Shown in pieces: positions 2,850 through 64,000 of a stretch of 64,000 nucleotides of DNA. The notes under the pieces are model-generated. The model was not told the DNA's origin. It searched no databases and was given only the letters and a program-made list of their open reading frames with translations. The position numbers and the translations under genes were made by a program. Origin of the DNA: Paraspadella gotoi (taxonomy: Eukaryota; Animalia; Chaetognatha); contig CM119270.1 of the NCBI GenBank assembly GCA_051294375.1, positions 8,667,213 through 8,731,212 of the forward strand, written 5' to 3'. Every line of letters starts with the position of its first letter. Position 1 is the stretch's first letter.

Positions 2850-2917
2850 GACAAAGATTGAACAGATGACAGAGATTGAACAGATGACAGAGATTGAACA
2901 GAAGGCCACGATTGAAA
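2850..2917. repeat. 18-bp minisatellite (GACAGAGATTGAACAGAT)
   Basis: About 3.5 tandem copies visible; explains the MTEIEQ repeats in ORF 2818..3024. Confidence 0.85.
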
Positions 2918-19297: not shown

Positions 19298-19732
19298 CCT
19301 GGGGCGAGAAAAAGACGGGGGCGAAGTTTTCAAAAAAAAAACAACCGATTTTAGTTTTTTTTTCGCGAGAAAATTTGTATGATTTTAGTATTTTTGGAGT
19401 TTCGAGTATTTATTTCCGCGTGCCAAATGACCGAGAATTAAATCGTAGACGAAGATGAGGAAAACATTGACGAGATGATGATGATGATGATCGTTTGAGT
19501 CTCATATTTCTATGAAGAAAAGACTGTTTAAGTAAATTCGTCGCCGGTTGGATAAGCGAGTGAAAATTGACAGAAAGATTAAGCATTGGTGAGCTGCGGA
19601 TAATCAGATGGAAGACGAACTTGAAAGATCTGAAACTACAAATTGCTGTGGCTCATAACAATTTCTATACATTTAAAAAAAGATCAAAAACAAATGAAAT
19701 ACAAAATAAATAAATGTTGGTTTTAATATTTT

Positions 19733-20534: not shown

Positions 20535-20619
<85 letters not shown>

Positions 20620-20895
20620 CTATTTCCAGGATCTTTCGACCGACGAGGAGAGAAAGGTTTACTTAGGGAGAAGGAAGAGGAAGAGGAGAAAATTATTGGA
20701 ACGAGAAATATTCTAAAAAGTAAAGGGTAAACGAGGAAAACGACGACGATAACAACTCTGACGATATTAACGACGACAATCAATACCAACACCGACGAAG
20801 ACGACGACGACGACGATGACAACGACGAAGACACAGCCAACCGTTTCCTCGTTTTGATCGTCCACGAAAAATCGCACGAAAGTTCTTTCTTTCTT

Positions 20896-20953
<58 letters not shown>

Positions 20954-22033: not shown

Positions 22034-22316
22034 TGTAGTCGGGCATAGCAAAGTTCACCCCGCCTCTAAGCATTAAATCCTTCAGTTGTAACCCGGTGGC
22101 TCATTGAGTAAAGCCATCAGCTCATGACCACTAGGTACGGGTTCAATCCCAACCCGGTACCTACTCTGCGGGAAGTGTGAGGACGGCCGTAAGCCGCCTT
22201 GGGGGCGTGGAAAACTCTCAAGCCTGGTTCCAAGCCCAGGACCCGTTCCATAGCTGCTAGAGGGGTTAAAGAAGTTATGGATAGTCATCTTCAGCCCACT
22301 TAGCGCCTTATCCACA
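22034..22316 (+). mobile_element. solo-LTR-like element family 1 (tRNA-like segment plus twister fold), duplicate copy
   Basis: TGTAG...CCACA ends; flanks GGTT / CGTT (one mismatch in the noisier copy). Confidence 0.75.
22168..22246 (+). ncRNA. twister ribozyme, P5-type (duplicate copy)
   Basis: Identical to 31636-31714; predicted cut between T22190 and A22191. Confidence 0.72.
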
Positions 22317-22379
22317 CGTTGTACCAATTTTATACATATATTCAATTATTCATGTTTATACCAAAACATTGATTTACAA

Positions 22380-24159
22380 CTAATGAGAAAGATTTTTTGC
22401 TCCTGGAAATTCTCATTCGACAAATGTGACACGTCTCGATCTGATTCATGCAGGTCTCACAACCCGTGTGACCACAAGACAAGACGATATCCATAGGATT
22501 TTCCAAACATATTTTACATTGTTCGCCTTCCGCCTCGCTCGGGCGACTTTCTAGCTCCGCCTTTTCTCGTTGAAGAGTGTCTATCGTCTTGGCTTGGTTG
22601 CTGATTTCGAGTTCATTGAGTTCTATCTTCTCTTTCAGGTAATCGATGGTGTCGTTGATGTGACGAGCTTCTTGTCCTTCTTCTTCCGTCCTTTCTTCAT
22701 TGTCAAAATCCTCTGATGAAGACTTAACATTTCTTCCTCCATTTCTTCCTTTGATTCATCAATATCTCCAGCTCTCTTTTCAATTTATCCGTTTCTTCTT
22801 TTTGCATGGAAATATCTCGGCTCATCTTTTCATTGTCCCTTCTAACAAACGTTTTTCTCCAGTTAAAACGATATTTTTCGATTTAATATTTTCGAAAGTT
22901 TATCTTGAAATTTTCTTCATTCTCTTTAGCTCGTCTTGATTCCTGGTGCATGTTTTTGTTTTCATTAAACAGGAAGTTATTTTCTTTTCCAAGTTCTCGA
23001 TTACTCTTCGTACTCTTTTTCTTTATCAAGATATTTAGAACGATTATCCTCTAATTGTTTTTTCAAATTATCATTCATTACTTGAACTTTCCCGATTCTC
23101 TTTATGTGAATGGCGAGCTCTTGGCTGCATCGCACCGCATTTGCAGAGTTAATATTTCACTAACCATTCTCTCACGTTCCTCTTGCAAAACTTCTAATTC
23201 GTGTTCAGGTTGAATTTCCTTCTCGTGTTTCTTCTTCAACTCTTGCAGTTCGAGAGTCTTTGTTTCCATTTCTTGCTGATGTTTAGCCGCCAAAGATGTT
23301 TTTTCTGACTGCAAAGATCGAAACTCTCTTTCAAATTTTTCTTGCTGCGTCGCTTTTCGTCTTTAAGACGTTCCGTTTCTCTCAACAATGTCTCCACTTT
23401 GACCCAGCCTCCTCCTTTAATTTTCCTTTCTTGTTTTAAGACTTTGATCTTTTCGTCTTCCTTGCGCACCAATGTACTGATGATCTTTTTTCGATATCCT
23501 TCGCTTTCTCTTTCCAACTCTTTCACTTTTTTGTTGAGCTCTTCGTTTCTCGATCGATCTCCGTTTTTTCGTCCTCAAAATTTCAATTTCTTCTTGAAAT
23601 TTTAGATATTTTTGGCTCGATTCCTCTGATATTTCTCGATCTTTTCGTTCATCCCACCTGAATGTCCATCTTTTCCTCGTTATCTATCGATTTGTTCGCA
23701 GTGTTTTCATCTTTTCTGCGTCCATCAGTAGTTTTCGCATTGAATCTAAGTTTGTTTTCGAAAGACGAATCTCCTGTTTGAAAATAGCACAAATTGACAA
23801 AGATTAAAAATCCTCTTGCAGGCGTGAATATAAAATATCAATTTTAATCAATTAAAAATTTACTTATAGTTAATATAGAATTTTAAATAAAAAGAATTAA
23901 CAACGCACCAGTAGGGGACCTAGGGGTATTTGTAAAGGATGGGGACAATTCCAGGCTTTCAACCGTCGGAGAAACATATTGAAAAACTTGGAAGCTCGAA
24001 TGACGGACGTCTTCTCCGGCGGCGTCCTTGCCGACGGTGTCTTTTCGGCAGCGTCTTCTCCGGCGGCGTCGAGAAGCCCCCAATCTGACACTTTCGGTCG
24101 CCGTCCGCGTCCTCGACCGACGCTTCGAGCCACAGCTCACCTCCGATCTCCATGGCCAT
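22380..24159 (-). pseudogene. frameshifted duplicate of the coiled-coil RING gene (probably sequencing errors)
   Basis: Collinear with 31846-33651 but broken into short ORFs by homopolymer indels. Confidence 0.75.
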
Positions 24160-24902
24160 CGTTCTGATTTTGCGCTGACAACTGGTAAAAGGTTCATTAA
24201 CAAGTTTTTTAAATAAATTGTATGATCAATAACTACATATTTCTTCCTTTTATTTAGCGGATTGTAGTACTAGTACATACATGAGAGGTAGAAAGAAATA
24301 ATATTGGAGCAGTAGTCAGAAAGAAAAGATATCAAAATAAATGCCGTAAATACTAATTTAACGAATATGGCACACACTGCGCTCATCAGGCGTTTATTCC
24401 GTTTGATTTTTTTTCAATGAATGAAAACATTAGGTGAAAAAAAATCAACTTTTTTGTTCGGAAAGTAACATTCTCTAGTCGAAAGGGAAAAAGCAGTTTT
24501 AGGAAGTAACATTGTCAGAAATGAATTTGCTTTTTAGCACAACTTGTCCCTGTTCGAGCAGCTGGAAAAAGTTGTCGAGGCAAGTCGTGTTCTGCCCTCA
24601 TGCCACATTTCTTTTTTTTGCTAATTATTTTTAATGATTTAGGCAAAATGTTGTGAATGGTAGTTGTTTGCGTAATAGCGTCGGCTACAACAGCGGCTTT
24701 TAGTGGTGAGCAATGTTTCAACTTCCTGGTTCTAAAGTTATCCCTCGCATTTGCTACTTTTATCTTAATGTAAATAAAAAGATTGGTTAAGGCCCCAGGG
24801 CCAGGGACCTCATTTTAGTTCGGCAATATGCATTTTAAAAAATATTTTTAGTAAATCCTTGTGAAAAATTATTGTTGACTAGAAAAGAAGTAATTTCTTC
24901 GT

Positions 24903-27900
24903 CAGCGGTTCTTTTTAACATCGATTTAATACGGCATCGAGTGCACAACGAATGAGATGTCCGGGATATGTTTTCCGGACCTTTGGGCTACACAAAAAAA
25001 GAAGGGTAAACAAAATTTTTCCTAATGTACGCAGTTTTTTTATAAATTAATATTAAAATTAGCTATATAAAATCAACAAAGTAGAATAAAAAAAATTAAA
25101 CAATGGTTTAAGAATTTTTTAAAATAAAAATATCCTGCATCATCCATAATCTATGAACAATTTCCTTTCGTTTGCAGTCCATAACCATTATTCTAATCTT
25201 TAAATGTTTATTAGTATTATTTTTCTTTATTAAAAATATTTATTTTTAATTTTTTTTAAATAATTTAAATTAAAAAAAATGTATAACTATGCAAATGATT
25301 GAAAAAAAATTTTATATTATAAGGGACTTACCTACCTAATATAGGCCTTCAAATACATATATAGTAAGTTTATTATGATTATGTTTTGATATAGAAAATA
25401 AATAATTTAAATAATTAAATATATGAAAATATTTTATACTTGAATTTTTTTTAGCATAATAAAACATAATTTTTAATTAAATGTTCATGATGCTTTTATT
25501 AGCTACTGTCAGGTTGTATCCTTGTCAATTATATATAATTTTATAACTTTCTTTTTATTTTTTAGTAATATTGACCGCTATATTCTTATTTGACAAAATC
25601 TAAAAAATTACTGATATTAAAAATTTGTATGAACACCGAACAAAACTTTTTTTTTAAATCACATGCTATTTAATTTGTGGAGTGATATAATAATTTCCTT
25701 GGACAAAATTTAAGGTTTAAACAATCCTAACTAAGACATTTTTAAGGCGCAAAAGTAAGGTTGTTTAAAAAAAACCTGCAAGATGCAAAAGTAATAAAAA
25801 AAGTTATTCCTTGAATATCTTTATGAAAAAAAGAGGGAGCAAGGTGGGTGTGGTATCAAATTAAAGCCTAATCATGGGAACAACATTTTTCTAGAACAGT
25901 TTTGTTTAAATTTTATCCAAATATTTACACAGCTTTTTATATTTAAATACAAAGTTAAAAGTATAAACAGTTTTTTTGCATTACAAAATTTCAATGAAGG
26001 CTATATAAATTTTTTTTGTTTTTTCTTTTGTAAATTTGAAAAGACGGAAAGTCTGAATTACATTTTAAATTACAATTAAATTTCTCTATACTGTATAAAA
26101 TTTGCTTGTATTTTTTAGTTAACAGTAAAAAAACAAGCAAAAAATTTTTTTAGTAGCTTGATAAAATGTTTTATTAAATATAAAAAATTGATAAATAAAA
26201 AATGTTTTCAGCTTTAATATAACAGTTTGACGTCTACCTTCTTGTCTGTTGAAAAAAAATATCATTTTTCATTATCTTTCAACTGCTAAAAAAGCTTGAT
26301 ATACAGGCTTGTTTATCATAATTAAAAATTTTAAAAAATTACTTAACTGCTGACATGATTTGACAAAGCAGCAGAATCATTGTGTTGAATTGTATGTGCT
26401 AATTTTCTTTAAATATAAGCAACGCTTTATAAAGGGAATTTAATTCTATTTTTATCATCCATTTGTTAATTAAGAAAAAAAAATTCGCGAAAGGGGTTCA
26501 TTGACTGACTTATATGATTGCATTTTTTAGGTTTCCTTTACTGCCCCATTACGAAGGACATAAAAGGTCATTATTATGCAATGTCACTATGACAGATTAT
26601 GCTTCTACCCTTTATGCCACCTGCATTCTGAATTTTTCTTTTTTTGCCTTTCCATGGTATTAAGATAAAAAAAATTATTTTGAGAGATCGATCAGCATGG
26701 GGAATTATCGTTGGTAAGCTTAGTTAACCCACTCCGATCAAATTTTTAAAAGCAGGTTTTTTTTTCATCTATTCTAGACATTCACTCTATATTGGTAGCT
26801 ATTTATTTTTAATTTTTTATATTCTCTTTCGCGTAATCAAAGAAACATTTTTCGTGTCAATTATAGAAAAAAGTAAAACGTTTTCAAAAATTAAAAAATG
26901 CTAATAGAGAATGCACTATACTTAACAAATATACTGGATGTTTAATATGTATTAGAACTTTGATGCCCACTCAAATAAAAAAAACTGTAATATACCTGCT
27001 TTTCTGTCATAATAAAAGAGGCTACTGCATTAAGTTAAAACGCTACTAACCTACTAAGCTAGTACATTTGACAACCTTAAAATGTCTAGTTGGATTGTTT
27101 AAAGTTTTTTAATTTTGTCCAGAATAATATTATATCAGTTTTAAAAAATTAAATAGCATGTGATTTAAAAAAAAGTTTTTGTCTGTTTCAATAAAATAAT
27201 TTTTAAATATCAGTAATTTTTGGATTTTGTCAAAAGTAATGTAAATATAGCAGTCAGATTACTAAAAATAAAAGAAGTTATATAAAATTTTATAATTGAC
27301 AGGAATACAACTGACCAGCAAATATTAAGCTCATGAACAATTAATTAAAAATTATGTTTATTATGCTAAAAAAATATTCAAAAGTTTATAAATTTTTTCC
27401 TTATTTTTAATTGAAATTTAAATTTTTAATTTTCTTATCAAAACATAATCATATAAACTTACTATATATGTATTTGAAGGCCTATTATTAGTATGGTAAG
27501 TGCCCTTATAATATAAAATTTTTTCAATCATTTGGCATAGTTATAATTTTTTTAATTTAAATTATTTGAAAAAAAATTAAAATAATATTTTATAAGAAAT
27601 AAATTAATTACAATAAACTTTAAAGATAGAATAATGATTATGGACTCAAAACGAAAGAAAATTGGTTCATAGATTATGGATGATGCATGAATTTTTGATT
27701 TTAAAAAAATTTAAACCATTTTTTAAATTTTTTTTATTCTACTTTGTTGATTTTATATAGCTAATTTTAATATTAATTTATAAAAAACTGTCATTAGTAA
27801 AAAATTTGTTTACCCTCTTTTTGTGTAAAGCCCAAAGGTCCGAAAGCATTATCCCGGGACATCTCATTTCTTGTGCACTCGATTGCCGATTAATCGATGT

Positions 27901-27915
27901 AAAAAGGAACCGGTG
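24903..27915. mobile_element. non-autonomous foldback DNA transposon (duplicate copy)
   Basis: Same long TIRs as 34384-37338. Confidence 0.85.
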
Positions 27916-29994
27916 ATCGTATTAAGTCAGAGAAATTGAAGTTAAACTTTCTGAAGGTATAAAAGTTAAGCTTTAAAAAATTGAAAAAAAAGGTTATGTT
28001 CCATGGTTAATTTATATTTTACCCCTTATTATTTAATTACTTTTACTGTTAATTATTGTAACCTTATTTTTTTTCAAATTAAAAAAAAAACCTGATTTTA
28101 AAACCATTTGTTTTTCTCGCAATCATCGTCCCTTCTGGCGTTAATTTTCGCTAAACAATTTAAACAAAAATAAGTACGTATTAACAAACATGTATTCTTT
28201 TTGTACGGAAGTTAAGCTTTAAAGTTGCAAAATAAATTTATAGTTTTGTAAATTCATATTTCGCAGGTTCAGTTTAACATTCTTCGAGAAATTTCAACAA
28301 TGAAATTCTACTTTTCTCAGTAAGTGCGTAGCAACGATGTGAAAACTTAGGCACTAACAATCAGGTCCTCTCCAATGACTTAAAATATACTCATATAAAT
28401 GTATTTCGTCCAATATTACTAAATTAATAAAAAGCCCTGCAGCTTTTTTACTCTCCAAAACTCCGTTTCATGTGCACTCCCAGCTTTCGTCTTTCCTCCA
28501 AACGACGATTTTTTAGTTTCTTTTTCGTTTCTGTAACCATTGTGTGACGGTAATGTAAATCTCTTCCTCTCTCGTCCCTTCGCTCTTCCTCCTCCTATCA
28601 AAAACTAGGGTGAACGATCTTTCCTCTTCCTCCATCTTCGCCGACATGGTTTACTGGGGCCGGCGCATGAACCGAAGTACAACATCCGGCCTGATATCCG
28701 TGCGTAATCTTCCTCCGCCTCAAGTAAGGATCCGAGTGTAAAGTAGTTCGATATTTTTTTTTTATTTATAAAATTTGTAAGAGAAATGCGTTGCGACTTC
28801 TGCGAGAAATCCAACTTAGAAAATAAACATTTTTAGCATTAAAAATATGGGTCGATCCTTATTTGCTTGTCCATCGTTTTTGTTGAAAAAACAATTACGG
28901 AATAAAGAGAGAAAAAAAAAGTTCTCTCTGCTCCCTCTCTCTTTTTCATTTGCAGGTTTTTTGACCTGGATACGACCCGGGCAGAGCTAGAGGGAGAAAC
29001 TAGTCGAATTGGCTCCGCGCTAATCGATTCCGACCTCTCTCTCTCTTTCTCTCTCTCTCTGCTGCTCTCTCTTCTCTCGTCTCCTCTTCCTCTCTCTCTC
29101 TCTCTCTTCTCTCTTCCCTCTTCCCTTTCTTCCTTTTTTCTCCTAAATTCTTTTTCTCTCTCTCGAGTCCACTTGCTGCTAGCTCGAAGGCCCTTGCTCT
29201 CTCTGTTTTCTATTCTCTCTCTATTTTCTTCCTTGTTGCTTGTAATGGAGAACACAATACGTACAAAATGGACCATTCAACGATAGCGCGATTTTGGCTT
29301 TGTACTGGGAAAATGTCAACAAACAGCGCACATTTACAAAATAGCGTTCATGCGTCACAAATTATATTCGGCTCTTAATTAAATCTTATTATGCAAATTT
29401 GATGTGTTTTACGGCAATTTTTTCTTTCTTTCTTTCTTTCTTTCTCTCTTTCTTTCTTTCTTCCTTTCTTTCTTTCTTTCTTTTCTTTTTTCTTTCTTTC
29501 TTCTTTCTTTTCTTTCTTTTGTGTTTACGCTCCTTGATTTAACTTTTTACGCGCTTTTCGTATGTCTCACCCTCTTATTCTTTTTTTTAACTCCTCTCCA
29601 CCAAATCAAATCAAATTAAATTGGCTACATTTTATTTCCGATATCGCCAGCTTCTTGAACGTAAACANNNNNNNNNNNNNNNNNNNNNNNNNGAGAGAGA
29701 GAGAGAGAGAGAGAGAGACTAGAATGAAGAGTTAGAGAAAGAAAGAGAGAAATAAAGAAAATGATTGTAGAAGAAAAACAATATTAATGCCAGTCAAATT
29801 TATTTATTTCTTGATTTTAGTCAAAATATATCGGTTTTACTAGTTTCCATGTTTTTTCTTCGTTTTGTTTTGTTTTATTTCTGTTGAAACTGAATCTCCA
29901 TTTTTATTTTTCTTGTTTAGTTTTTTTTTTTTTTTTTTCCTGAATGTTGTTCGGGAACAAAACTTCCTCGAGTCTCATTTCCTTCATCCTCCTC

Positions 29995-30081
<87 letters not shown>

Positions 30082-30370
30082 CTATTTCCAGGATCTTTCG
30101 ACCGACGAGAGGAGAAAGGTTTACTTAGGGAGAAGGAAGAGGAAGAGGAGAAAATTATTGGAACGAGAAATATTCTAAAAAGTAAAGGGTAAACGAGGAA
30201 AACGACGACGATAACAACTCTGACGATATTAACGACGACAATCAATACCAACACCGACGAAGACGACGACGACGAGGACGACGACGATGACAACGACGAA
30301 GACACAGCCAACCGTTTCCTCGTTTTGATCGTCCACGAAAAATCGCACGAAAGTTCTTTCTTTCTTTCTT

Positions 30371-30426
<56 letters not shown>

Positions 30427-31557
30427 CCTCTCGCAAAGAAAACAATAACTTTCTTTTCCGGTAAATCAGTTCCGATTTCCATGTGGCATCGCGCCATGTG
30501 GCACTCACTATCACCCTAATTGTTCAGTTAATAGTGTATGATATTTATTTATTACCTCTTTGCTCTATGGCTTTAGTTTTCTGTTTTGCTGCTTATTTTT
30601 ACACTGGTAAACATTATGATTATCCTTACTGCGACTACAATTTTTTTTTAAATATGATTTTTTTATTAACATTATTTTCTGGGAAAAGAAACTTTTTATA
30701 TATTTAAATTAATTCATTGGATTGCAAATGTGGAACCGGAGAATTGAAATCCAATACCATGAAAAATGAACATATATTATAATGACATGATTACATTTTC
30801 TGATACCATCTCTTCAAGATCATAGGTTGTTTCTGTAAGTGTAACCCAAATTCAGTCAAACCAGAATCGTGAGTGTTCATTTGTTTAAACTCCCAGTTTT
30901 ACACTAAAGTTTCCAGATAGAGCTAACCTTAAAGGGATAAAGAAACAAATGCTAATTTTTTTTATAGAAAACAGTAATCGTTCGAATAACAGCACAACTT
31001 TTTCATAAAGCAAATGTAATATATGTAGTATGAAACTATGTCTATGGCTTATAAAATTGGTACAACCAATATAAAAATTATCCATTCATTTAATAAATAA
31101 GCTATAAATAAGCTTTCAATCAAGACTCTCCACAGTCTCGTTTATTCACTCCCAGAGTACCCGGCTTCCTTATCAAAGAAGTAGCATAAAATCTCACAGA
31201 ATGTTTCAATCGTATTTACTTACATGCTAGAGCGGAGTACAATATAGTATTCCCCGATCTAATACTTAAGGGAGTGGTCTTTTCATACAATTGAAACATT
31301 CTTTGAAACAATACACTACTTCATTGATAGGGAAGCCAGGGTACTCTGGGAGTGAAATAAACGAGACTGTGAGAAAGTCTTAATTGAAAGCTTGCAGGGA
31401 ACTGCTATGTCATTATCTTGTAAGAGTGATGGAGGCCTTAAACCACCAAAGTCAGGGGCAAGATAGCTTGTTTATTAAATTGATAATTTTTATATTGGTT
31501 TGTAGTCGGGCATAGCAAAGTTCACCCCGCCTCTAAGCATTAAATCCTTCAGTTGTA

Positions 31558-31627
31558 ACCCGGTGGCTCATTGAGTAAAGCCATCAGCTCATGACCACTA
31601 GGTACCGGGTTCAATCCCAACCCGGTA
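31558..31627 (+). promoter_or_regulatory. tRNA-derived internal Pol III promoter (A box TGGCTCATTGAG, B box GGTTCAATCCC)
   Basis: Resembles tRNA-Lys/Met scaffolds (CCCGG..GCTCA..GTAAAGC..CATCAG CTCATGA..GGGTTCAATCCC). Acceptor and anticodon stems do not pair, so it is not a functional tRNA. Second copy at 22091-22159. Confidence 0.7.
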
Positions 31628-31635
31628 CCTACTCT

Positions 31636-31714
31636 GCGGGAAGTGTGAGGACGGCCGTAAGCCGCCTTGGGGGCGTGGAAAACTCTCAAGCCTGGTTCCA
31701 AGCCCAGGACCCGT
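31636..31714 (+). ncRNA. twister ribozyme, P5-type circular permutation
   Basis: P5 GCGGG/CCCGT; GA-GGA; short P1 CGGCCG; U^AA; GC (T2); P3 CTTGGGGG/CTCTCAAG; P4 CCTGG/CCAGG with loop TTCCAAGC; T1 UCC:GGA. P2 is imperfect. Predicted cut between 31658 and 31659. Confidence 0.75.
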
Positions 31715-31845
31715 TCCATAGCTGCTAGAGGGGTAAAGAAGTATGGATAGTCATCTTCAGCCCACTTAGCGCCTTATCCACAGGTTGTACCAATTTTATA
31801 CATATATTCAATTATTCATGTTATACCAAAACATTTGATTTACAA

Positions 31846-33651
31846 CTAATTGAGAAAGATTTTTTGCCTCCTGGAAATTCTCATTCGACAAATGTGACAC
31901 GTCTCGATCTGATTCATGCAGGTCTCACAACCCGTGTGACCACAAGACAAGACGATATCCATAGGATTTTCCAAACATATTTTACATTGTTCGCCTTCCG
32001 CCTCGCTCGGGCGACTTTCTAGCTCCGCCTTTTCTCGTTGAAGAGTGTCTATCGTCTTGGCTTGGTTGCTGATTTCGAGTTCATTGAGTTCTATCTTCTC
32101 TTTCAGGTAATCGATGGTGTCGTTGATGTGACGAGCTTCTTGTCCTTCTTCTTCCGTCCTTTCTTCATTGTCAAAAATCCTCTGATGAAGACTTAACATT
32201 TCTTCCTCCATTTCTTCCTTTTGATTCATCAATATCTCCAGCTCTCTTTTCAATTTATCCGTTTCTTCTTTTTGCATGGAAATATCTCGGCTCATCTTTT
32301 CATTGTCCCTTTCTAACAAACGTTTTTCTCCAGTTAAAACGATATTTTTCGATTTAATATTTTCGAAGTTTATCTTGAAATTTTCTTCATTCTCTTTAGC
32401 TCGTCTTGATTCCTGGTGCATGTTTTTGTTTTCATTAAACAGAGAAGTTATTTTCTTTTCCAAGTTCTCGATTACCTCTTCGTACTCTTTTTCTTTATCA
32501 AGATATTTAGAACGATTATCCTCTAATTGTTTTTTCAAATTATCATTCATTACTTGAACTTTTCCCGATTCCTCTTTATGTTGAATGGCGAGCTCTTGGC
32601 TGCATCGCACCGCATTGTGCAGAGTTAATATTTCACTAACCATTCTCTCACGTTCCTCTTGCAAAACTTCTAATTCGTGTTTCAGGTTCGAATTTTCCTT
32701 CTCGTGTTTCTTCTTCAACTCTTGCAGTTCGAGAGACTTTGTTTCCATTTCTTGCTGATGTTTAGCCGCCAAAGAGTTTTTTTCTGACTGCAAAGATCGA
32801 AACTCTCTTTCAAATTTTTCTTGCTGCGTCGCTTTTTCGTCTTTAAGACGTTCCGTTTCTCTCAACAATGTCTCCACTTTGACCCCAGCCTCCTCCTTTA
32901 ATTTTCCGTTTTCTTGTTTAAGACCTTTGATCTTTTCGTCTTTCTTGCGCACAATGTACTGATGATCTTTTTCGATATCCTTCGCTTTCTCTTCCAACTC
33001 TTTCACTTTTTTGTTGAGCTCTTCGTTTTCTCGATCGATCTCCCGTTTTTTCGTCCTCAAAATTTCAATTTCTTCTTGAAATTTTAGATATTTTTGGCTC
33101 GATTCCTCTTGATATTTATCGATCTTTTCGTTCATTCCCACCTGAATGTCCATATTTTCCTTTGTTAATCTATCGATTTGTTCGCGTAGTTTTTCAATCT
33201 TTTCTGCGTGCATCAGTAGTTTTCGCATTGAATCTAAGTTGTTTTCGAAAGACGAATCTCCTGTTTTGAAAATAGCACAAATTGACAAAGATTAAAAATC
33301 CTCTTGCAGGCGTGAAAAATAAAATATCAATGCTAATCAAATTAAATATATATTTATAGTTAATATAGAATTTTAAATAAAAAGAATTAACAACGCACCA
33401 GTAGGGGACCTAGGGGTATTTGTAAAGGATTGGTGCGACAATTCCAGGCTTTCAACCGTCGGAGAAACATATTGAAACTTGGAAGCCTCGAATGACGGCG
33501 TCTTCTCCGGCGGCGTCCTTGCCGACGGTGTCTTTTCCGGCAGCGTCTTCTCCGGCGGCGTCGAGAAGCCCCAATCTGACACTTTCGGTCGCCGTCCGCG
33601 TCCTCGACCGACGCTTCGAGCCACAGCATCACCTCCGATCTCCATGGCCAT
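31846..33651 (-). CDS. coiled-coil protein with C-terminal C3HC4 RING (IAP/Neuralized/MIB-like E3 ligase); exons ~33399-33651(+) and 31846-33260
   Basis: About 420 aa of E/K-rich heptads, then CKICLENPMDIVLSCGHTGCETCMNQIETCHICRMRISRRQKIFLN*. The phase-1 intron 33261-33398 (GTGCGT..AACAG) joins the two ORFs in frame. Further 5' exons are possible. Confidence 0.85.
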
Positions 33652-34383
33652 CGTTCTGATTTTGCGCTGACAACTGGTAAAAGGTTCATTAACAAGTTTT
33701 TTAAATAAATTGTATGATCAATAACTACATTATTTCTTCCTTTTATTTAGCGGATTGTAGTACTAGTACATACATGAGAGGTAGAAAGAAATAATATTGA
33801 GCAGTAGTCAGAAAGAAAAGATATCAAAATAAATGCCGTAATACTAATTTAAAACGATATGGCACACAAACTGCGCTCATCAGGCGTATTCCGTTGATTT
33901 TTTTTCAATGAATGAAAACAGTTAGGGTGAAAAAAAATCACTTTTTTGTTCGCGAAAGTCAACATTCTCTAGTCGAAAGGGAAAAGCAGTTTAGGAAGTA
34001 ACATTGTCAGAAATGAATTGCTTTTTACACAACTTGTCCTGTTCGAGCAGCTGGAAAAAGTTGTCGAGCAAGTCGTGTTCTGCCTCATGCGCTCATTTCT
34101 TTTTTTCTTAATTATTTTTAATGATTTAGGCAAAATGTTGTGAATGGTAGTTGGTTGCGTATAGCGTCGGCTACAACAGCGGCTTTAGTGGTGGAGCAAT
34201 GTTTCACTTCCTGGTTCTAAGTTATCCCTCGCATTTGCTACTTTATCTTAATGTAAATAAAAATTGGTTAAGGCCCCAGGGCCAGGGACCTCATTTTAGT
34301 TCGGCAATATGCATTTTAAAACAATATTTTAGTAAATCCTTGTGAAAAATTAATTGTTGAACTAAAAAGAAGTATTTCTTCGT

Positions 34384-37338
34384 CACGGTTCCTTTTTACA
34401 TCGATTTAATCGGCATCGAGTGCACAAGAATGAGATGTCCCGGGATATGTTTCCGGACCTTTGGGCTACACAAAAAGAGGGTAAACAAATTTTTCCTAAT
34501 GACAGTTTTTTTATAAATTAATATTAAAATTAGCTATATAAAATCAACAAAGTAGAATAAAAAAAATTAAAAAATGGTTTAAATTTTTTTAAAATAAAAA
34601 TATCCTGCATCATCCATAATCTATGAACAATTTCCTTTCGTTTGAGTCCATAACCATTATTCTATCTTTAATTGTTTATTAGTAATTAATTTTTCTTTAT
34701 TAAAATATTATTTTAATTTTTTTTTCAAAATAATTTAAATTAAAAAAAATTATAACTATGCAAATGATTGAAAAAAAATTTTATATTATAAGGGACTTAC
34801 CTACCTAATAAGGCCTTCAAATACATATATAGTAAGTTTATTATGATTATGTTTTGATATAGAAAATAAATAATTTAAATAATTAAATATATGAAAAAAA
34901 TTATAATTTGAATTTTTTTTAGCATAATAAACATAATTTTTAATTAATTGTTCATGATGCTTTTATTAGCTACTGGTCAGTTGTATCCTTGTCAATTATA
35001 ATAATTTTATAACTTCTTTTATTTTTAGTAATATTGACCGCTATATTTACTTACTTTTGACAAATCTAAAAATTACTGATATTAAAAATTATGTATGAAA
35101 CAGACAAAAAACTTTTTTTTTAAATCACATGCTATTTAATTTTGTGGAGTGATATAATATTATCCTTGGACAAATTTAAAAGGTTTTAAACAATCCCAAC
35201 TAGACATTTTTAAGGCAAAAGTAAGGTTGTTTAAAAAAAACTGCAAGATGCAAAAAGTAATAAAAAAAGTTATTTTCTTGAATATCTTTTGAAAAAAAAG
35301 AGGGAGCAAGGTGGGTGTGGTATCAAATTAAAGCCCTAATCATGGGACACATTTCTAGAACAGTTTTGTTAAATTTTATCCATAAATATTTATACAGCTT
35401 TTTATTTAAATACAAGTTAAAAGTATAACAGTTTTTGTGCATTACAAATTTCAATGAAGGCATATAAATTTTTTTGTTTTTCTTTTGTAAATTGAAAGAG
35501 GAAAGTCTGAATTACATTTTAATTACCATTAAATTTTCTCTACTGTATAAATTTGCTTGTATTTTTTAGTTAAAGTAAAAAACAAGCAAAAATTTTGTAG
35601 TAGCTTGATAAATGTTTTTTTTTAAATATAAAAATTGATAAATAAAAAAATGTTTTCAGCTTTATATAAACAGTCTGGACGTCTACCTTCTTGTCTGTGA
35701 AAAAATAATCATTTTTTCATTATCTTCAACTGCTAAGAAAAAGCTTGATATACAGCTTGTTTATCATAATAAAATTTTAAAAATTATTTAACTGCTGACA
35801 TATTTGACAAAGCAAGACATCATTGTGTTGAATTGTATTGCTAATTTTCTTTTAAATATAACAACCTTTTATAAGGGAATTTAATTCTATTATTTATCAT
35901 CCATTTAATTAAGAAAAAAAATTCGCGGAAAGGGTTCATTGACTGACTTAATGATTGCATTTTTTAGGTTTCTTTACTGCCCCATTACGAAGGACATAAA
36001 AGGTCATTATTATCATGTCACTATGTACAGATTATCTCTACCCTTTATGCCACCTGCATTCTGAATTTTCTTTTTTTCCCTTTCAATGGTATTAAATAAA
36101 AAAAATTATTTGAGAGATCGATCAGCATGGAGGATATCGTTGGTAGCCTTAGTTAACCCACTTCCCGATCAAAATTTTTCAAGGTTTTTTTTTCATCTAT
36201 TCTAGACATTACTCTAACTATTGGTACTATTTATTTTTAATTTTTTATCATTCTCTTTCGCGTAATCAAAGAAACATTTTTCGTGTCAAAAAAATTATAG
36301 AAAAAAGAGTAAAACGTTTTCAAAAATTAAAAAATCTATAGAGGAATCTACTATACTAAACAAATATACTGATGTTAATATGTATTAGAACTTTGATGCC
36401 ACTCCAAATAAAAAAAACTGTAAATATACTGCTTTTTCTGTCATAATAAAAGAGGCTACTGCATTAAGTTAAAACCTACTAACCTACTAAGCAGTACATT
36501 TGACAACCTTAAAATGTCTAGTTGGGATTGTTTAAAAACTTTTTAAATTTTTGTCCAAGATAATATTATATCAGTTCAAAAAATTAAATAGCATGTGATT
36601 TAAAAAAAAGTTTTTTCTGTTTCATAAATAATTTTTTAATATCAGTAATTTTTGGATTTTGTCAAAAGTAAGTAAATATAGCAGTCAGAATTACTAAAAA
36701 TAAAAGAAGTTATAAAATTATTATAATTGACAAGGATACAACTGACCAGCAGCTATTAAAAGCATCATGAACAATTAATTAAAAATTATGTTTATTATGC
36801 TAAAAAAAAATTCAAAGTTATAAATTTTTTCATATATTTAATTATTTAAATTATTTATTTTCTATATCAAAACATAATCATAATAAACTTACTATATATG
36901 TATTTGAAGGCCTATATTAGGTAGGTAAGTCCCTTATAATATAAAAATTTTTTTAAATCATTTGGCATAGTTATAATTTTTTTTAATTTAAATTATTTGA
37001 AAAAAAATTAAAATAATATTTTAATAAAGAAAAATTAATTACAAATAAACTATTAAAGATAGAATAATGATTATGGACTCAAACGAAAGAAAATTGTTCA
37101 TAGATTATGGATGATGCATGATATTTTTATTTTAAAAAAAATTTAAACCATTTTTAATTTTTTTTATTCTACTTTGTTGATTTTATATAGCTAATTTTAA
37201 TATTAATTTATAAAAAAACTGTCATTATAAAAATTTGTTTACCTCTTTTTGTGTAGCCCAAAGGTCCGGAAACATATCCCGGGACATCTCATTCTTGTGC
37301 ACTCGATGCCGATTAAATCGATGTAAAAAGGAACCGTG
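34384..37338. mobile_element. non-autonomous foldback DNA transposon, ~830-bp TIRs, CACGG...CCGTG ends (Transib/Chapaev-like)
   Basis: 34384-~35215 is the reverse complement of ~36506-37338. Flanks TTCGT / ATCGT resemble a 5-bp TSD with one mismatch. The ~1.3 kb AT-rich core has no long ORF. Confidence 0.85.
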
Positions 37339-39102
37339 ATCGTATTAAGTTCAGAGAAAGAAGTTAAACTTTCTGAAGGTAGGTACGACAAATCAAATTT
37401 TAAAAAAATTGAAAGGTATTGCACATGTAAGTATATTTATACCTATTATTTATATTACTTACTTGTATTATTGATAACCTTATTTTTTTGCAAAAAATGT
37501 TCCAAACGCATGAGTAATTCGCTAATTAATATATTATATTGCTATATAATTGTTAAAAATTTTTTTTAGATATTTTAGGTTTTTTTAATTGATTCTGATA
37601 GAGCTTAAAAAGTAAAGCAAAAAATAATAATTACAACTTTTTAAAATTTTGATGTTTATTACTAAAAATTAATAAAAATGCCTAAAATCAATCGGGATGA
37701 TGATGATGATGAATGATTTTTTCAGTTTTTCTAATTTAAACCCACTTATCATCAAAATATAGAAAAAAAAGAATTATACTTTGTGTAGAATAACTTTTTA
37801 TAAGCTATTTGAATCTGCTTTTAAAACTAAAAATTCCAAAAAAAAATTTTTGACATTTCGCTATCTATAATAAATATTAAAAAATTAATTACAATGCTTC
37901 TTGTCATTTTAGAAAATTTTGGCCATTGAAAGTTTCTCAGAATGTATGAAGTTTCATTTGGAAAGGTTCCCAAATCAAACTTCTGACCCACCCCATTGAC
38001 GAAGTTTGGCTCTACTGAAAGGTATAAAAAGTTAAGCTTTAAAAAATTGAAAAAAAGGTATGTCCATGGTTAATTTATATTTTACCCCTTATTATTTATA
38101 TTACTTTTACTGTTAATTATTGTAACCTTATTTTTTTCAAATTAAAAAAAAACCTGATTTTAAAACCATTTGTTTTCTCGCAATCAATTTCCGTCCCCTC
38201 TGGCGTTAATTTTCCTAAACAATTTAAACAAAAAATAAGTAACGTATTAACAAAATGTATTCCTTTTGTACGGAAAAGTTAAGCTTTAAAGTTCAAATAA
38301 ATTTATAGTTTTGTAAATTCATATTTCGCAGGTCAGTTAACATTCTTCGAGAAATTTCAACAATGAAATTCTACTTTTCTCAGTAAGTGCGTACAACGAT
38401 GTGAAAACTTAGGCACTAACAATCAGGTCCCTCATCCAATGCACTTAAAATATACTCAATATAAATGTATTTCGTCCAATATTCTAAATTAATAAAAGCC
38501 CTCAGCTTTTTTACTCTCAAAACTCCGTTTCATGTCACTCCAGCTTTCGTCTTTCCTCCAAACGACGATATTTTTAGTTTCTTTTTCGTTTCTTAACCAT
38601 TCGTGTGACGGTATGTAAATCTCTTCCTCTTCTCGTCCTTCGCTCTTCCTCCTCCTATCAAAAACTAGGGTGAACGATCTTCCTCTTCCTCCATCTTCGC
38701 CGAGCAATGTTTACGGGGGCCGGCGCATGAACCGAAGTACAACCATCGGCCTAGATATCCGTGCGTATCTTCCTCCGCCTCAAGAAGGATCCGAGGTAAA
38801 GTAGTTCCGAATATTTTTTTTTATTTATAAAATTTGTAAGAGAATTCGTTCGACTTCTGCCGAGAAATCCAACTTAGAAAATAAACATTTATTAGCATTA
38901 AAAAATGGGTCGATCCTTATTTCTGTCATCGTTTGTTGAAAAAAAAATTACGGATAAAGAGAGAAAAAAAAAGTTCTCTCTCTCCCTCTCTCTTTTTCAT
39001 TCGCAGGTTTTTTTGACCTGGATACGACCCGGGCAGAGCAGAGAGAAACTAGGTCGAATTGCTCCGCGCTATCTCTCTCTCTCTCTCTCTCTCTCTCCTC
39101 TC

Positions 39103-56600: not shown

Positions 56601-58460
56601 GATACACAGATTTACGGGTTGACTTCGACGAAAAGACGACGGGGACATAGATGGAATTTGTTAATGAATTGGGTATATCAGAATTATATAAGTATATAAG
56701 TAATTTGCAAATTCTCATAAGTATATTAATGATATATATTGAAGTATATATTGAGTATAGTACTGTGGCGGTATATTCACACCGCCTCACGTCCACCATC
56801 CTACAGCCAAATCATATTTTGTTCATAAATCCATAGTATGTATAAAATTATATCTGAATTTTACGCGCTTTACAGAAATAAATTAAACCATCGTTTCTCC
56901 AAATAAAAAATTGACATTCGTCATGGGTTAGCTTGTGTTTACATTTCTTTAAAAGATTAAGTCAAACAAGAGACAAAACCGACCCGTCGCGATTCTTCAC
57001 TGCCTTTCTTCGCATTTTTTACGCCTCATTTGTAATCGTTCTCCGTCGAAAACATTAAAGAAATTAGTTTAATTTTGAAGAAAATCAACGAAACTCCAAA
57101 GAGGTGAGTGAACCGAATGTTTTATGATTTCGTCAAAATAAGAAGTTCATAATTGATTTAGTAATATCTAGTTTTACTATGAAACAAAGAATGTTGCTCG
57201 CTTAGTTCTCGTTTTCTTTTGAAGCAGCGACAATATTAAATGCAATAACTAATAATAACATCAACGACGACAACAACAACAACTTAATCTTTTTTTCATG
57301 ATTTATTTTCGGGATGAGAAATACTGTGCTACTTCAACATTTTTTCCCCATATTTTTCGGCATAAATTTCTATGCCATTCTATGTCATTAATTTTTAAAA
57401 GAATTTAAGTATTAATTTTATTATTATTAGTTTTTATTTTTTTTTTTATGTTCCGTTCAATAGTCTGGCTAGGATATAAATGCGGCCCATTGCTTCGTAA
57501 AGTATAGACCGCAGTATTTTTTTTAGACCTAGGAAGAATACATATGCGTAAAAAAGTGTAAGTATTGTCCAAGTCACGCTCACCGTTTCTTTATTACCTG
57601 AACCTAGTAATAGGAGTTACAAATTGAAGTTCTATGATTGTTTGCCAGTTAAATATTAATAAGACCATAAGATTAAGCACATGTAAATATTGTAGATATA
57701 ACTTATAAGAGATGGTTATCCCTGAATATCCCCGACTTGTCGCGCCTTCTTCAAGTACAGAACAGTCCGCTCAAGTTGTAGGGAGTTACAAGCAGCTCGA
57801 ATCGATATGACGCACGATGAAACTCTATGGTGGAAGGCACACAGGTTGAAATTAAACAGAGAACTACATCTTTGCGCCATGATAAACCCCAAATAAGGTT
57901 CTTGACTATTTTCTATTTCTTTTATTGTGACTAAAACAATTTAAAGCCTTGAGATGAGTATCATTACATACAATCCTGGATATATCTCAATTTTCTTAGA
58001 GACCATCTTTATAATTTAGAAAGACGTAAAATGAATGAAAATATACATAGCTTTCAACCGTCATTCGTTCAATTGGTTTATTTCAGGCTCAACAAATCAC
58101 TCCTACTTTCCTGCTTCGAATTAACGCGGTAAAGAGAAAGAGAAATATTTTTTTCCGACTCAATTGTCGACCATTCGTCTGGTTTACTTAGACATTCACT
58201 CGTAAGGTTGGACCGCAATTTGTTTTGACGAGTGATTTTTATTTTTCCTCCCCCCCTGTTTCTCTTTTGCAAATGATCTTTTTCCTTTCCATACTTTCAT
58301 GTTATATCTCTGGGATAATGACCCAGACATGCAAATAGGGAACTAAAACAGATAAACGGGCAATCTCGATCACTTCCAAACTTCCACTCTTACGTCTTCT
58401 AAATTTTAAAACAACGCAGTCTACAGTATCATGAATCTCTTCTTTTTTGAATAATCGTGA

Positions 58461-61600: not shown

Positions 61601-64000
61601 TTTTTTTTTGATGGGGACTTGGGGAGTTAATATAAAGGTAATTTTGGTTTTCTTTTTTTTCCTATTTTTTTTTCCTTTCTTTCCCTCAATACGTAATCTT
61701 TGAAACCTCGCGCAACGAAAGCCTCGTTAAAGCTTACGCCTTTTTGAAGTAAATCCTTGTGCTATTTGGATTAGTGGGAAACTGTAAAAATCAATAGAAA
61801 TGTAAATGTTTTCGGGAGCTGACTGACATGTGAATGGAAAGCACCAATATCGAAAATCGTAAGGTAGTCATTTTCATGAAAAAAATCGATTGTGTCTACT
61901 GTCATAGATTTGTGTATTATTAATACTTATCCTAATTTTGATAATGAAACGTATTATATAATTTTATATATTACCAAAATCACCCTTATGAATGAATTAT
62001 GAGTAGGTCTGACGATAATTTACCTTATTACCTACTCTTTGCTCCTTCTGAAAGGTTTTAATAGGTTTAATTTATACTTCCAATTTACAAAGTTTAAACG
62101 CTTTTGCTTTTTCTCATTCTTAGGCTCAATGACCCGATCGTGAAGCAAGAACGCGAAGCTCCGAAAGAAACAGCAGGAGATCCAGATGAGGCTCCAAATC
62201 CTTCACTTCCGCCCGACAGAAGGAAAGGCGCTCATCTCGTTACCAAGGCAACAGGTTGGTTGAGGGACGGGTTGTATATCATGACACAAAGTTCCTTAAG
62301 CCTTAAGCCTTAAGCCTTAAGCAAGATAAGGAATATAAAAGATCTAACATTCTACTATATAGTATATTATGAGGTTTAAGTTCATAATCTAATTAAATTA
62401 ACCACAAGTTAATTTAAACTACGTATTTAATACCACTGCCAAAATTTCGAAGCATACTTTTTTTAATAAAAAAAAGTTATGTTGCGATTTTTTTTTGAAA
62501 ATAATATGAAATGATTACTATTGTAATCATACCAAATTGTTGCTATTTTTTGAAGTATGAGTTTTTTATTTTGTTTTACGGTAATTCTTTCTATTTATTG
62601 AAGTAACTCGTAATGTATTATATTTTAAATTTTTTTCTCGCTCCGCTCTCCTTCCCTTTAAGACACGTTGCCCCCGACTATGTCGTCGTCGTCGTCGTCG
62701 CCTCCAGCGTCGTCGACAACGACGACGAGTCAGATGCTCCTCCAGCAACAGCCCCATCACCTCTCCGTCGTCTCCGCTCGTCAGACTCTGCTTCAAGAAG
62801 CGGCGTCGTCGAGCGGCGGAGGCAACGGCGCCTCCCTGGCCTCGGTGGCTGCGGCCGCCGCCGCTCACCTGAACGCCGCCGTCGCGCAACAGCAGCAACA
62901 GCAGCAGCTTTCGTCGTCGCTGCAGGAACAACAATTACTTCTGGCGGCGGCGGCGGCGGCCGGGAGCGGCGCGGCTACTCCGCCGCCGACGTCCACGTTG
63001 CTTTCCTCATCGTCGTCGTCGACTCCGTCGCCATCCTCTTCTCATCTCATCCTACAGGGTAGCATCACGCAACAGCAGCTCCAGCATCCCCAGCTTCATC
63101 CTCATCATTCACAGCATCACCAGCAACAGCAAATACTCGTAGGACAATTGAACGCGGGTTCGCCGTCTTACGCGGCAGCGGCGGCAGCTGCGGCAGCGGC
63201 CGGTCTGGGTTTGCCACAGGTGGTGGTCAAGCAGCAGGCGCCGTCGCCCGGGGTTTCGTCGCAATCGTCGTCGACGCATCAATTGCAACAGCAACATCAC
63301 CGAGTCGTTTCCTCGCCCAAGTCTCTCGTCGTCGTCGACAACAACAATCATCATCTGAGGTTGTTTATTTTTAGATTGTTTCTTTAAATGAGTAATAAAA
63401 TACTATTTACAAGACAAAAGAAAGAGAGAGAAAATAAAAGGAACAAAAAATAAAGAAGTAAAATAAAGACAATAAAGAAAGAAAGAAAGAAAGAAAGAAA
63501 AAAAGAAAAAAAGAACGAATAACCGATTAGCCAGCCAAGAGACAAAGAAAGAAACAAAAATAATACCATATTATGGCAACAGCCGGGTTGCCTGTGATGC
63601 TCATTGGGATGGGGCATCTCACTGTTGGCTTTGAGGGCTTCCGACCCTCAGTGACGCCTCCAGTCACTGGCGCGGTTACCCTAGGACGGTCTCGCTTTGC
63701 CAACGCAGAGGGAAGTCATTAGGACTGTGGATGGAACACTACGCCTGGGATGGTGTGTTCCCCCTCTGAGCCAATGGATTTGGCTGAACGATGGTGGACG
63801 TGAGGCGGTGTGAATATACCGCCACAATATCATACATAGGATGTGATGATCTCTAATTTTTCTTTCCCTCTCCACTTTCCACAGAGTCTCCAGTCCCCAC
63901 GCGCTCGTTCCATCCTCCCAGCTATACGCTTCTCCGCACGGCGCCGGAACCTCGGCTTCGGCGTCCCAGTCTTCGTCGCAGCCTTCGCCAGACACGAGTT
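50685..64000 (+). CDS. large S/P/Q/A-rich low-complexity protein (probable nuclear regulator), runs off the window; exons 50685-51706, 52039-52409, 52862-53711, 62124-62254, 62663-63359, 63885->64000
   Basis: All six exons have GT-AG junctions with matching phases (2,1,2,1,2) and no stops. N-terminal PPPKRPK is NLS-like, VKQE is a SUMO-like motif, and there are polyQ/polyA tracts. No folded domain is visible within the window. Confidence 0.8.
56764..56813 (+). mobile_element. terminal fragment of solo-LTR family 2
   Basis: TGTGGCGGTATATTCACACCGCCTCACGTCCACCATC..CAGCCAAATC is the reverse complement of ~63777-63826. Confidence 0.85.
59835..61444 (+). CDS. alternative first coding exon (~536 codons) of the same gene
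   Basis: 1.6-kb open frame from ATG 59835, with an in-frame TAA upstream. It ends GG|GTGAGA in phase 2, matching the phase-2 acceptor at 62124. Confidence 0.65.
62293..62322. repeat. (CCTTAAG)4 heptamer repeat
   Basis: Directly visible in an intron. Confidence 0.85.
63572..63826 (-). mobile_element. solo-LTR-like element family 2 (255 bp) with twister fold, intronic
   Basis: Terminal inverted ends TATGGC / GCCACA (5/6 match); 4-bp TSD ATAT at 63568-63571 and 63827-63830; GC-rich and hairpin-rich within an AT-rich intron. Confidence 0.78.
63624..63704 (-). ncRNA. twister ribozyme, P5-type circular permutation
   Basis: Minus strand reads GTTGGC AAA GCGA GA-CCG TCCTAGGG T^AA CCGC GC CAGTGAC-TGGAGGC-GTCACTG AGGG TCGGAAGC CCTC AAA GCCAAC. 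P5, P2, P3, P4, T1 (CGG:CCG) and T2 (GC:GC) all form. Predicted cut between 63678 and 63677. Confidence 0.8.

What the first reader, a model, noticed from the sequence alone, without database searches (positions are those of the whole stretch)
63624..63704. Near-canonical P5 twister fold antisense within an intron of the large + strand gene
Every twister element can be paired by hand: 6-bp P5, 3-bp P2, 7-bp P3, P4, loop UCGGAAGC, and both pseudoknots. It lies on the strand opposite the host pre-mRNA, so it would not cut the host transcript. This fits selection against sense-oriented self-cleaving inserts; the family-1 copy is likewise antisense to the RING gene next to it.
Basis: partly seen in the sequence, partly recalled or inferred. 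Interest (0 to 1): 0.75.

Follow-up and report, generated by a model that had tools for sequence, protein, structure and literature searches.

The report
Twister ribozyme in LTR-like animal repeat
This intron holds one copy of a very abundant 255-base mobile DNA unit that has the end motifs and 4-base target duplication of a retrotransposon long terminal repeat and carries a conserved twister self-cutting RNA fold; it likely cuts the element's own RNA as in plant 'retrozymes', which would be new for what is probably an animal, but cutting is untested and one antisense copy cannot show selection.

Summary
The fold is real: a type-P5 twister on the minus strand (63704-63624) with all catalytic residues and both pseudoknots. 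A strict descriptor hit 0 of 1500 window shuffles; Rfam scores it only weakly. It lies antisense in a 525-base intron of a + strand gene. Read that way, the twister is sense within the element. Across the family, 11 of 12 common variable sites are unpaired. Best reading: a solo LTR of a retrozyme-like element whose twister likely cuts its RNA into a unit that circularises. The internal region, primer site, cleavage and circles were not seen, and this copy is predicted to misfold. The selection claim is unsupported: one copy; the family-1 copy beside the RING gene has lost 11 core bases; antisense bias is general for LTRs. LTR retrozymes are described only from plants, with hammerheads, in the papers searched.

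The parts
63572..63826 (-). 255-base LTR-like mobile unit (solo copy); begins TGTGGCG, ends GCCATA; no AATAAA and no TTTT on either strand
   Evidence: Loose-end peaks at 63572 and 63826 in 4 of 4 runs and depth step at both ends; ends and motifs; folds better than 200 of 200 shuffles on the minus strand, z -2.63
63568..63571 (.). Left copy of 4-base target duplication, ATAT
   Evidence: Sequence; further loose-end peak at 63568 in X7 and X3
63827..63830 (.). Right copy of 4-base target duplication, ATAT
   Evidence: Sequence; further loose-end peak at 63830 in X7 and X3
63624..63704 (-). Type-P5 twister ribozyme fold (P5, P2, T1, short P1, T2, P3, P4)
   Evidence: Pairings listed; descriptor 0 of 1500 shuffles; weak Rfam twister-P1 match
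63677..63678 (-). Predicted cut between U 63678 and A 63677, after base 149 of the 255-base unit
   Evidence: Twisters cut at the U-A of the UAA loop (PMC8501958, passage); position; not tested
63706..63768 (-). Three-way junction upstream of the twister (7-, 7- and 4-pair helices); its + strand weakly resembles the 3' half of animal 5S rRNA
   Evidence: Folds, pairs, 5S comparison
63769..63823 (-). Two 6-pair hairpins near the 5' end of the unit (63823-63804, 63785-63769)
   Evidence: common variants fall in their loops and linker
63575..63618 (-). Two hairpins 3' of the twister (63618-63596, 63592-63575)
63360..63884 (+). Host intron, 525 bases (266 without the insertion)
   Evidence: GT..AG, pyrimidine tract, frame open across the joint
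62663..63359 (+). Upstream host exon (Gln/Ala/Ser-rich, no Pfam family above cut-off)
63885..64000 (+). Downstream host exon (runs off the window)
56764..56813 (+). 50-base fragment of the same element (its TGTGGCG end), opposite orientation, no twister
   Evidence: blastn 54 of 59 identical

Best explanation
The 81-base fold is a type-P5 twister that sits, in sense orientation, inside a 255-base high-copy element with LTR-type ends and a 4-base target duplication, and it likely serves that element rather than the host: the element is probably the solo long terminal repeat of a retrozyme-like Ty3/Gypsy-dependent retroelement. Shown: the fold, the ends, the duplication, the dispersed high copy number, and family variation that spares paired positions. 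[quoted passage not shown] This intronic copy is a passenger: antisense to the host gene, with two private substitutions, and probably less active than the family.
For: Twister core complete, chance low. Deviations singly tolerated in Osa-1-4: G44A (the same C-A mismatch) relative activity 0.97, C21G/G34U 0.89 (PMC5113685 supplement rows); P1, P2, P4 imperfections tolerated, pseudoknots not (PMC11662667 section 32 part 1). Element limits sharp, flanks unrelated (loose-end agreement 0.41-0.46 in DNA runs), summed depth 9,028 to 52,883 times the single-copy exon in 3 of 3 DNA runs, 2 studies (not a copy number). First 7 bases fit the CsRN1 integrase motif TGTGGYG 7 of 7 (PMC3601003 Table 3); TGT...ATA ends and 4-base duplications are reported for CsRn1-like elements (PMC2582038 section 6). 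In run X9 (RNA by guess) the 13 contigs leaving the TGT end share, at agreement 0.5, a purine-rich tract with a G-run ending 3 bases before it, where a polypurine tract would lie (table 7). 11 of 12 sites varying at 3% or more in all three DNA runs are unpaired (P 3e-4 with my helix map; 2 of 12 paired, P 0.0015, with the unedited minus-strand MFE; 5 of 12, P 0.064, plus strand); none of 60 constrained twister positions is among them. Plant retrozymes have the same layout and leave solo LTRs (PMC4918200 passages).
Against: No internal region, primer-binding site, second LTR or pol gene was seen; the loose-end table showed only 24 of 801 rows, mostly unrelated flanks, and 67 window ORFs gave no RT or integrase family. 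The polypurine hint is one mixed consensus from one run whose RNA status is a guess. AATAAA, conserved in CsRN1 LTR models, is absent; the 3' end fits MSYYAMA at only 5 of 7; CsRn1 elements showed no target preference whereas ATAT is favoured here. Without pseudoknots the twister fold is 13 kcal/mol above a rival fold (-19.4 against -32.6); P1 and P4 have near-zero and P2 0.06-0.33 pairing probability. The mismatches were tolerated singly in another twister; their sum is untested. Variable sites are linked by subfamily, depth-weighted, and only 40 of 57 rows were shown, so the P values overstate independence. No cleavage, circle or strand-specific RNA was observed.
Confidence: 0.5

Rival explanations
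1. It is an LTR with an active twister, but the RNA stays linear: transcription starts inside the 5' twister, so only the 3' LTR copy folds and cuts, and the ribozyme replaces the missing polyadenylation signal of an ordinary (possibly protein-coding) CsRn1-like element.
For: Same end motifs and duplication; no AATAAA on either strand.
Against: Needs a start site within the 27 bases before the cut; no start-site data exist here. An internal coding region was not seen.
Confidence: 0.15
2. It is an LTR-like or mobile unit whose twister-like fold no longer cuts, or cuts very slowly, because a rival fold traps it; conservation reflects recent amplification.
For: Rival fold 13 kcal/mol lower without pseudoknots; 2-pair P1, mismatches in P2 and P4; Rfam below threshold; five or six mismatches lowered cleavage in natural twisters (PMC11662667 passage).
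Against: Both pseudoknots are all G-C and all invariant residues are present; common variants avoid paired sites; the energy model omits pseudoknots and Mg2+.
Confidence: 0.13
3. It is a whole miniature DNA transposon (Ginger2-like MITE) that moves as DNA and carries the twister as a passenger.
For: TGT start, 4-base duplication, AT-rich target as for Ginger2 (PMC2836005 passages); nearly all listed flanks are unrelated at both ends.
Against: Ginger2 has 50-180-base terminal inverted repeats; here only an imperfect 8-base repeat exists. DNA-level movement does not explain RNA-structure-sparing variation or the purine tract in X9.
Confidence: 0.1
4. It is a 5S-derived, Pol III-driven element read on the + strand (Cassandra/Ajax or SINE3-like), with the twister on its antisense strand.
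For: 63699-63758 (+) aligns to 7 fetched animal-type 5S rRNA loci with scores reached by 1 to 28 of 1000 shuffles; 5S-bearing LTRs exist (PMC10886601, parts 1-5 of 6).
Against: Rfam 5S gives no hit at E up to 10; the likeness was picked by eye among many known RNAs; a non-5S locus caught by the same pattern scored higher (57 against 38-46); box A is poorly matched; ends, purine tract and variation favour the minus strand.
Confidence: 0.07
5. First reader's reading of the orientation (not exclusive of the above): intronic copies are antisense because sense copies would cut the host pre-mRNA and are purged.
For: This copy is antisense; the + strand fragment at 56764-56813 lacks the twister. Hammerhead retrozymes are depleted from introns in Xenopus (bioRxiv 10.64898/2026.07.22.740005 section 13; no strand data in that section).
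Against: n = 1; family-1 support is a broken copy; intact family-1 copies are sense to the neighbouring ASC gene; LTRs are antisense-biased anyway; a sense ribozyme is kept in the CPEB3 intron (search listing).
Confidence: 0.25

Closest known systems
Type-P5 twister ribozyme (Rfam RF02684, clan CL00120; Roth et al. 2014, not read)
   Same: Permutation open at P5, GA and UAA core, 8-base P4 loop, both pseudoknots, U-A cut site.
   Different: T1 is CGG/CCG rather than the consensus CCC loop; P1 is 2 pairs; carries a 7-pair P3 that the RF02684 consensus lacks; not recognised at Rfam's threshold.
Plant LTR retrozymes (Cervera et al. 2016, PMC4918200)
   Same: Self-cleaving ribozyme inside an LTR-sized unit, 4-base target duplication, Ty3/Gypsy-type ends, solo LTRs.
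   Different: Twister instead of type III hammerhead; probably an animal host; ends like the CsRn1 clade; internal region, primer site and circles not shown here. A review states that animal retrozymes lack LTRs, PBS and PPT (PMC7761336, passage).
LTRs of CsRn1-clade Ty3/Gypsy retrotransposons (PMC2582038, PMC3601003)
   Same: TGTGGYG start, TGT...ATA ends, 4-base duplication, length within the 146-383 bases listed.
   Different: No AATAAA; a favoured ATAT target; a ribozyme inside; no coding region or tRNA-Trp primer site seen.
Animal TRIMs Helenus and Ajax (Kojima 2024, PMC10886601)
   Same: Short non-autonomous LTR units with an embedded structured RNA; 4-base duplications in animal Helenus; many solo LTRs.
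   Different: Their insert is a tRNA- or 5S-derived promoter, not a ribozyme; no tRNA gene is found here and the 5S likeness is weak and on the other strand.
Twister T-variants of Perere-3, Schistosoma mansoni (PMC8501958)
   Same: Twister serving a retroelement.
   Different: There the element starts at the cut and the duplication abuts it; here the cut is in the middle of a unit with fixed LTR-type ends.

Membership tests
Twister ribozyme, type P5 | Invariant core (G45, A46, U6-A7-A8, U24, A28, A29) | tested here: met
   G 63691, A 63690, U 63678, A 63677, A 63676, U 63644, A 63640, A 63639
Twister ribozyme, type P5 | Pseudoknots T1 and T2 can pair | tested here: met
   3 of 3 and 2 of 2 G-C pairs
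Twister ribozyme, type P5 | Stems P1, P2, P4 and closing P5 | tested here: met
   2, 3, 3 and 6 pairs, with one mismatch each in P2 and P4
Twister ribozyme, type P5 | Rfam gathering score | tested here: not met
   No RF02684 hit; RF03160 14.4 bits against 67.2; the model allows no long P3 insert
Twister ribozyme, type P5 | Native fold favoured over rivals | tested here: inconclusive
   Rival fold 13 kcal/mol lower in a model without pseudoknots
Twister ribozyme, type P5 | Site-specific self-cleavage | not testable with these tools
   Needs an assay
CsRn1-clade LTR | 5' integrase motif TGTGGYG and TGT...ATA/AAA ends | tested here: met
   7 of 7; ends TGT...ATA; 3' motif MSYYAMA 5 of 7
CsRn1-clade LTR | 4-base target duplication | tested here: met
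   ATAT both sides; loose-end peaks 4 bases outside both ends
CsRn1-clade LTR | AATAAA polyadenylation motif | tested here: not met
   Absent on both strands; so filed as CsRn1-type ends, not as a member
CsRn1-clade LTR | Polypurine tract before the 3' LTR | tested here: inconclusive
   Seen in one mixed loose-end row of run X9, 13 contigs, agreement 0.5; not in the three DNA runs' listed rows
CsRn1-clade LTR | tRNA-Trp primer site, CHCC Gag, pol | not testable with these tools
   No genome held; no other copy in public collections
LTR retrozyme | Ribozyme within the LTR, in sense | tested here: met
   Twister at bases 123-203 of 255 on the TGT...ATA strand; ribozyme class differs from the defining hammerhead
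LTR retrozyme | Two LTRs around a non-coding region with PBS and PPT | tested here: inconclusive
   This copy is solo; only the purine-tract hint
LTR retrozyme | Circular RNA | not testable with these tools
   Only assembled contigs were available
Ginger2 MITE | Terminal inverted repeats of 50-180 bases | tested here: not met
   None; 8-base imperfect repeat only
Twister-headed RTE/Perere-3 element | Element begins at the cut, duplication beside it | tested here: not met
   Ends lie 149 and 106 bases from the cut; no loose-end peak at 63677 among the 24 rows shown
Tandem animal (non-LTR) retrozyme / Penelope pseudo-LTR | Head-to-tail repeats | tested here: not met
   Single unit with unrelated flanks; of 15 joints shown one goes back, by 210 bases, in one contig per run
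5S- or tRNA-derived TRIM/SINE | Recognisable 5S or tRNA promoter | tested here: inconclusive
   Weak 5S likeness, no Rfam 5S hit, no tRNA

The most novel reading that the evidence does not exclude
The first animal LTR retrozyme, and the first with a twister: a non-coding element with CsRn1-type LTR ends that cuts its RNA at a twister in each LTR, circularises, and has seeded of the order of ten thousand solo-LTR ribozymes through one genome.
Probability: 0.4. Interest if true: 0.8.

Novelty: new variant of a known kind. Interest (0 to 1): 0.62.

Why it matters
Twisters have one documented job in animals, setting the 5' end of RTE-type retrotransposons. A twister inside an LTR would be a second, and would show that the plant retrozyme plan (ribozyme in the LTR, circular intermediate, borrowed Gypsy enzymes) also arose in animals with a different ribozyme.

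Tried and rejected
No whole genome was held, so no orientation count, no internal region. No listed run is on record as RNA; X9 is RNA by guess. X9 covers the downstream exon from about 63883 and not 63845-63874, but no contig joins across the intron, so this is not used as evidence. A dip in X9 depth near the cut appears against X5 but not against X3, and contigs cannot show ends: rejected. Exact element motifs found nothing in metagenome, genome or viral contigs; one degenerate viral hit was an unrelated hairpin. A core-motif pattern returned 88 loci; 78 of 88 could be parsed, 4 of 78 had 3 P2 pairs, none more than 3 P3 pairs, none resembled the element by blastn: chance matches. The 5S pattern found nothing in viral contigs and 8 loci in genome contigs, 7 of them 5S. 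Host phylum not found: two protein searches empty, Atlas unreachable; 'animal' is inferred from an ASC channel exon and a RING/B-box gene (that ASC genes are mainly animal is recalled). Rfam miRNA hits in the window are GA/CT microsatellites. The sigma-70 scan is irrelevant to a eukaryote. The supplement of PMC11662667 could not be read, so this twister may be listed there; Repbase and Dfam could not be searched, so the element may be catalogued without its ribozyme. Earlier findings by place and sequence were empty.

Full report
1. The observation. The minus strand of 63704-63624 carries every element of a type-P5 twister. By Osa-1-4 numbering (PMC5113685, part 1 of 2 of the text read): P5 6 pairs, P2 3 pairs plus a C-A mismatch at 9-44, G45 at 63691, A46, T1 3 G-C pairs, a 2-pair P1 closed by a 4-base loop, U6-A7-A8 at 63678-63676, T2 2 G-C pairs, P3 7 pairs, P4 3 pairs (one wobble) plus an A-C mismatch, loop UCGGAAGC. 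T1 is CGG with CCG, a change on both sides relative to the CCC loop in Rfam's consensus lines. A tight descriptor finds only this site in the window, 2 of 1500 shuffled windows at core level and 0 of 1500 with P5; a looser one gave 27 hits in 150 shuffled windows and 0 of 20,000 element shuffles. The descriptors were written knowing the sequence. As a natural control, 78 of 88 public loci that match the core letters could be parsed, and none forms the stems. Rfam does not recognise the site.

2. Would it cut? In Osa-1-4 the same C-A mismatch (G44A) leaves relative activity 0.97 and the same P4 wobble (C21G/G34U) 0.89 (supplement rows). In 2,600 natural twisters P1, P2 and P4 flaws were tolerated and pseudoknot flaws were not (PMC11662667, abstract, passages, section 32 part 1 and section 35). 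Against this, a pseudoknot-free model puts a rival fold 13 kcal/mol lower; only P5 and P3 are well populated. This copy differs from about 99% of family depth at two places, 63634 (P4) and 63601 (a downstream hairpin); the base at 63634 pairs in the rival fold, so this copy is probably weaker than the family. Cleavage is untested.

3. The host gene. Donor GT 63360, acceptor AG 63884; four exons read open for 851 codons on the + strand; no Pfam family above cut-off. The twister is therefore antisense to the pre-mRNA and would not cut it. The host is probably an animal (ASC channel exon, RING/B-box gene); the phylum was not found.

4. The carrier. Laying contigs of four runs (three studies; X3 may be the source) on 63560-64000 gave 498 to 8,857 records per run. 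Depth steps up at 63572 and down at 63826, to 9,028-52,883 times the exon depth in the DNA runs (the tool warns that this is no copy number). Loose ends peak at 63572 and 63826 and again 4 bases outside, at 63568 and 63830, and share no sequence in the DNA runs (24 of 801 rows shown). The window has ATAT on both sides. So this is a dispersed 255-base unit with a 4-base duplication. On the twister strand it begins TGTGGCG and ends GCCATA. The first 7 bases equal the CsRN1 integrase motif TGTGGYG (PMC3601003, passages and Table 3), and CsRn1-like LTRs are reported to end TGT...AAA or TGT...ATA with 4-base duplications (PMC2582038, passages and section 6). In X9 the 13 contigs leaving the TGT end share a purine-rich tract with a G-run ending 3 bases before it, the place of a polypurine tract; Helenus and Ajax internal regions end the same way (supplement passages). 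This is one mixed row from a run whose RNA status is a guess. AATAAA is absent, and no primer site, second LTR or coding region was seen.

5. Selection on structure. Of 37 variant places shown (40 of 57 rows), 12 vary at 3% or more in all three DNA runs; 11 are unpaired, and the twelfth faces a partner that also varies. In the twister only two P3-loop bases vary; none of 60 constrained positions does. P is 3e-4 with my helix map, 0.0015 with the unedited minus-strand fold and 0.064 with the plus-strand fold; linkage among sites makes these optimistic. The whole unit folds better than 200 of 200 shuffles on the minus strand and 194 of 200 on the plus strand. The source elements seem to be kept as a structured minus-strand RNA.

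6. Mechanism. The layout matches plant retrozymes: a ribozyme in each LTR cuts the transcript to a unit without terminal repeat, the unit circularises, and Ty3/Gypsy enzymes copy it into solo, full or multimeric insertions (PMC4918200, passages). I infer the same here, with the cut after base 149. Confidence: twister-class fold about 0.9; LTR-type unit about 0.75; the whole circular-RNA scheme about 0.5. Rivals: ribozyme as 3'-end former of a linear RNA; inactive fold; MITE (fails the inverted-repeat test; PMC2836005 passages); 5S-derived + strand element (weak likeness; PMC10886601 parts 1-5 of 6).

7. It is untested and weakly founded. The family-1 copy next to the RING gene lacks 11 core bases and is present twice by duplication. 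The four family-1 copies that Rfam scores are on the strand of the neighbouring ASC gene. Solo LTRs are antisense-biased in introns anyway (PMC1794541, search listing and outline), and a sense intronic ribozyme persists in CPEB3 (search listing only). In favour: the + strand fragment at 56764-56813 lacks the twister, though its place in the same gene is not shown, and Xenopus retrozymes avoid introns (bioRxiv 10.64898/2026.07.22.740005, abstract and section 13).

8. Novelty. Five searches of the paper library (listings only) showed no twister in an LTR and no animal LTR retrozyme; a review says animal retrozymes lack LTRs, PBS and PPT (PMC7761336, passages), and known twister-transposon links are at RTE 5' ends (PMC8501958, abstract and passages; PMC6765202, passages). 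Subscription papers, Roth et al. 2014, the supplement of PMC11662667 and repeat databases were not seen. Earlier scan notes report twisters in Naiad pseudo-LTRs and RTE heads, not in units with these ends (unchecked).

9. Verdict. Observation confirmed; interpretation partly supported; the interest lies in the carrier. New variant of a known kind; interest 0.62; 0.8 if the LTR-retrozyme reading (probability 0.4) holds.

Noticed in passing
window 4191-5155 (-): Family 1: tandem units of about 330 bases, each with a twister-P5-like core (Rfam 19.8-25.8 bits, below 37.6); unrelated in sequence to the element studied; tandem layout suggests a Penelope pseudo-LTR or non-LTR retrozyme.
   Followed up: partly
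window 21580-22033 and 31049-31500: Rearranged family-1 copies: two units in inverted orientation, the + strand core lacking 11 bases.
   Followed up: partly
window 20226-28078 and 29693-37494: A 7.8-kb duplication at 94% identity holding the RING gene twice; the first copy is frameshifted. Could be a real duplication or an assembly artefact.
   Followed up: no
window 24902-27916 and 34383-37339: AT-rich 3-kb element with about 850-base terminal inverted repeats, likely a DNA transposon.
   Followed up: no
window 31849-33291 (-): Intronless 481-residue coiled-coil protein with a C-terminal RING finger; no relatives found among proteins of similar length.
   Followed up: partly
window 17972-19384 (-): 471-residue frame with RING and two B-box domains (TRIM-like).
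   Followed up: no
window 6060-6428 (-): Last exon of an amiloride-sensitive (ASC, DEG/ENaC) channel gene.
   Followed up: partly
window 15215-17305 (+): Short cysteine-rich exons with hydrophobic ends, no Pfam family.
   Followed up: no
window 63699-63758 (+): Weak likeness to the 3' half of animal 5S rRNA on the strand opposite the twister; unexplained.
   Followed up: partly
L091-L097: Animal-type 5S rRNA genes inside bacterial genome assemblies, most likely host contamination.
   Followed up: no
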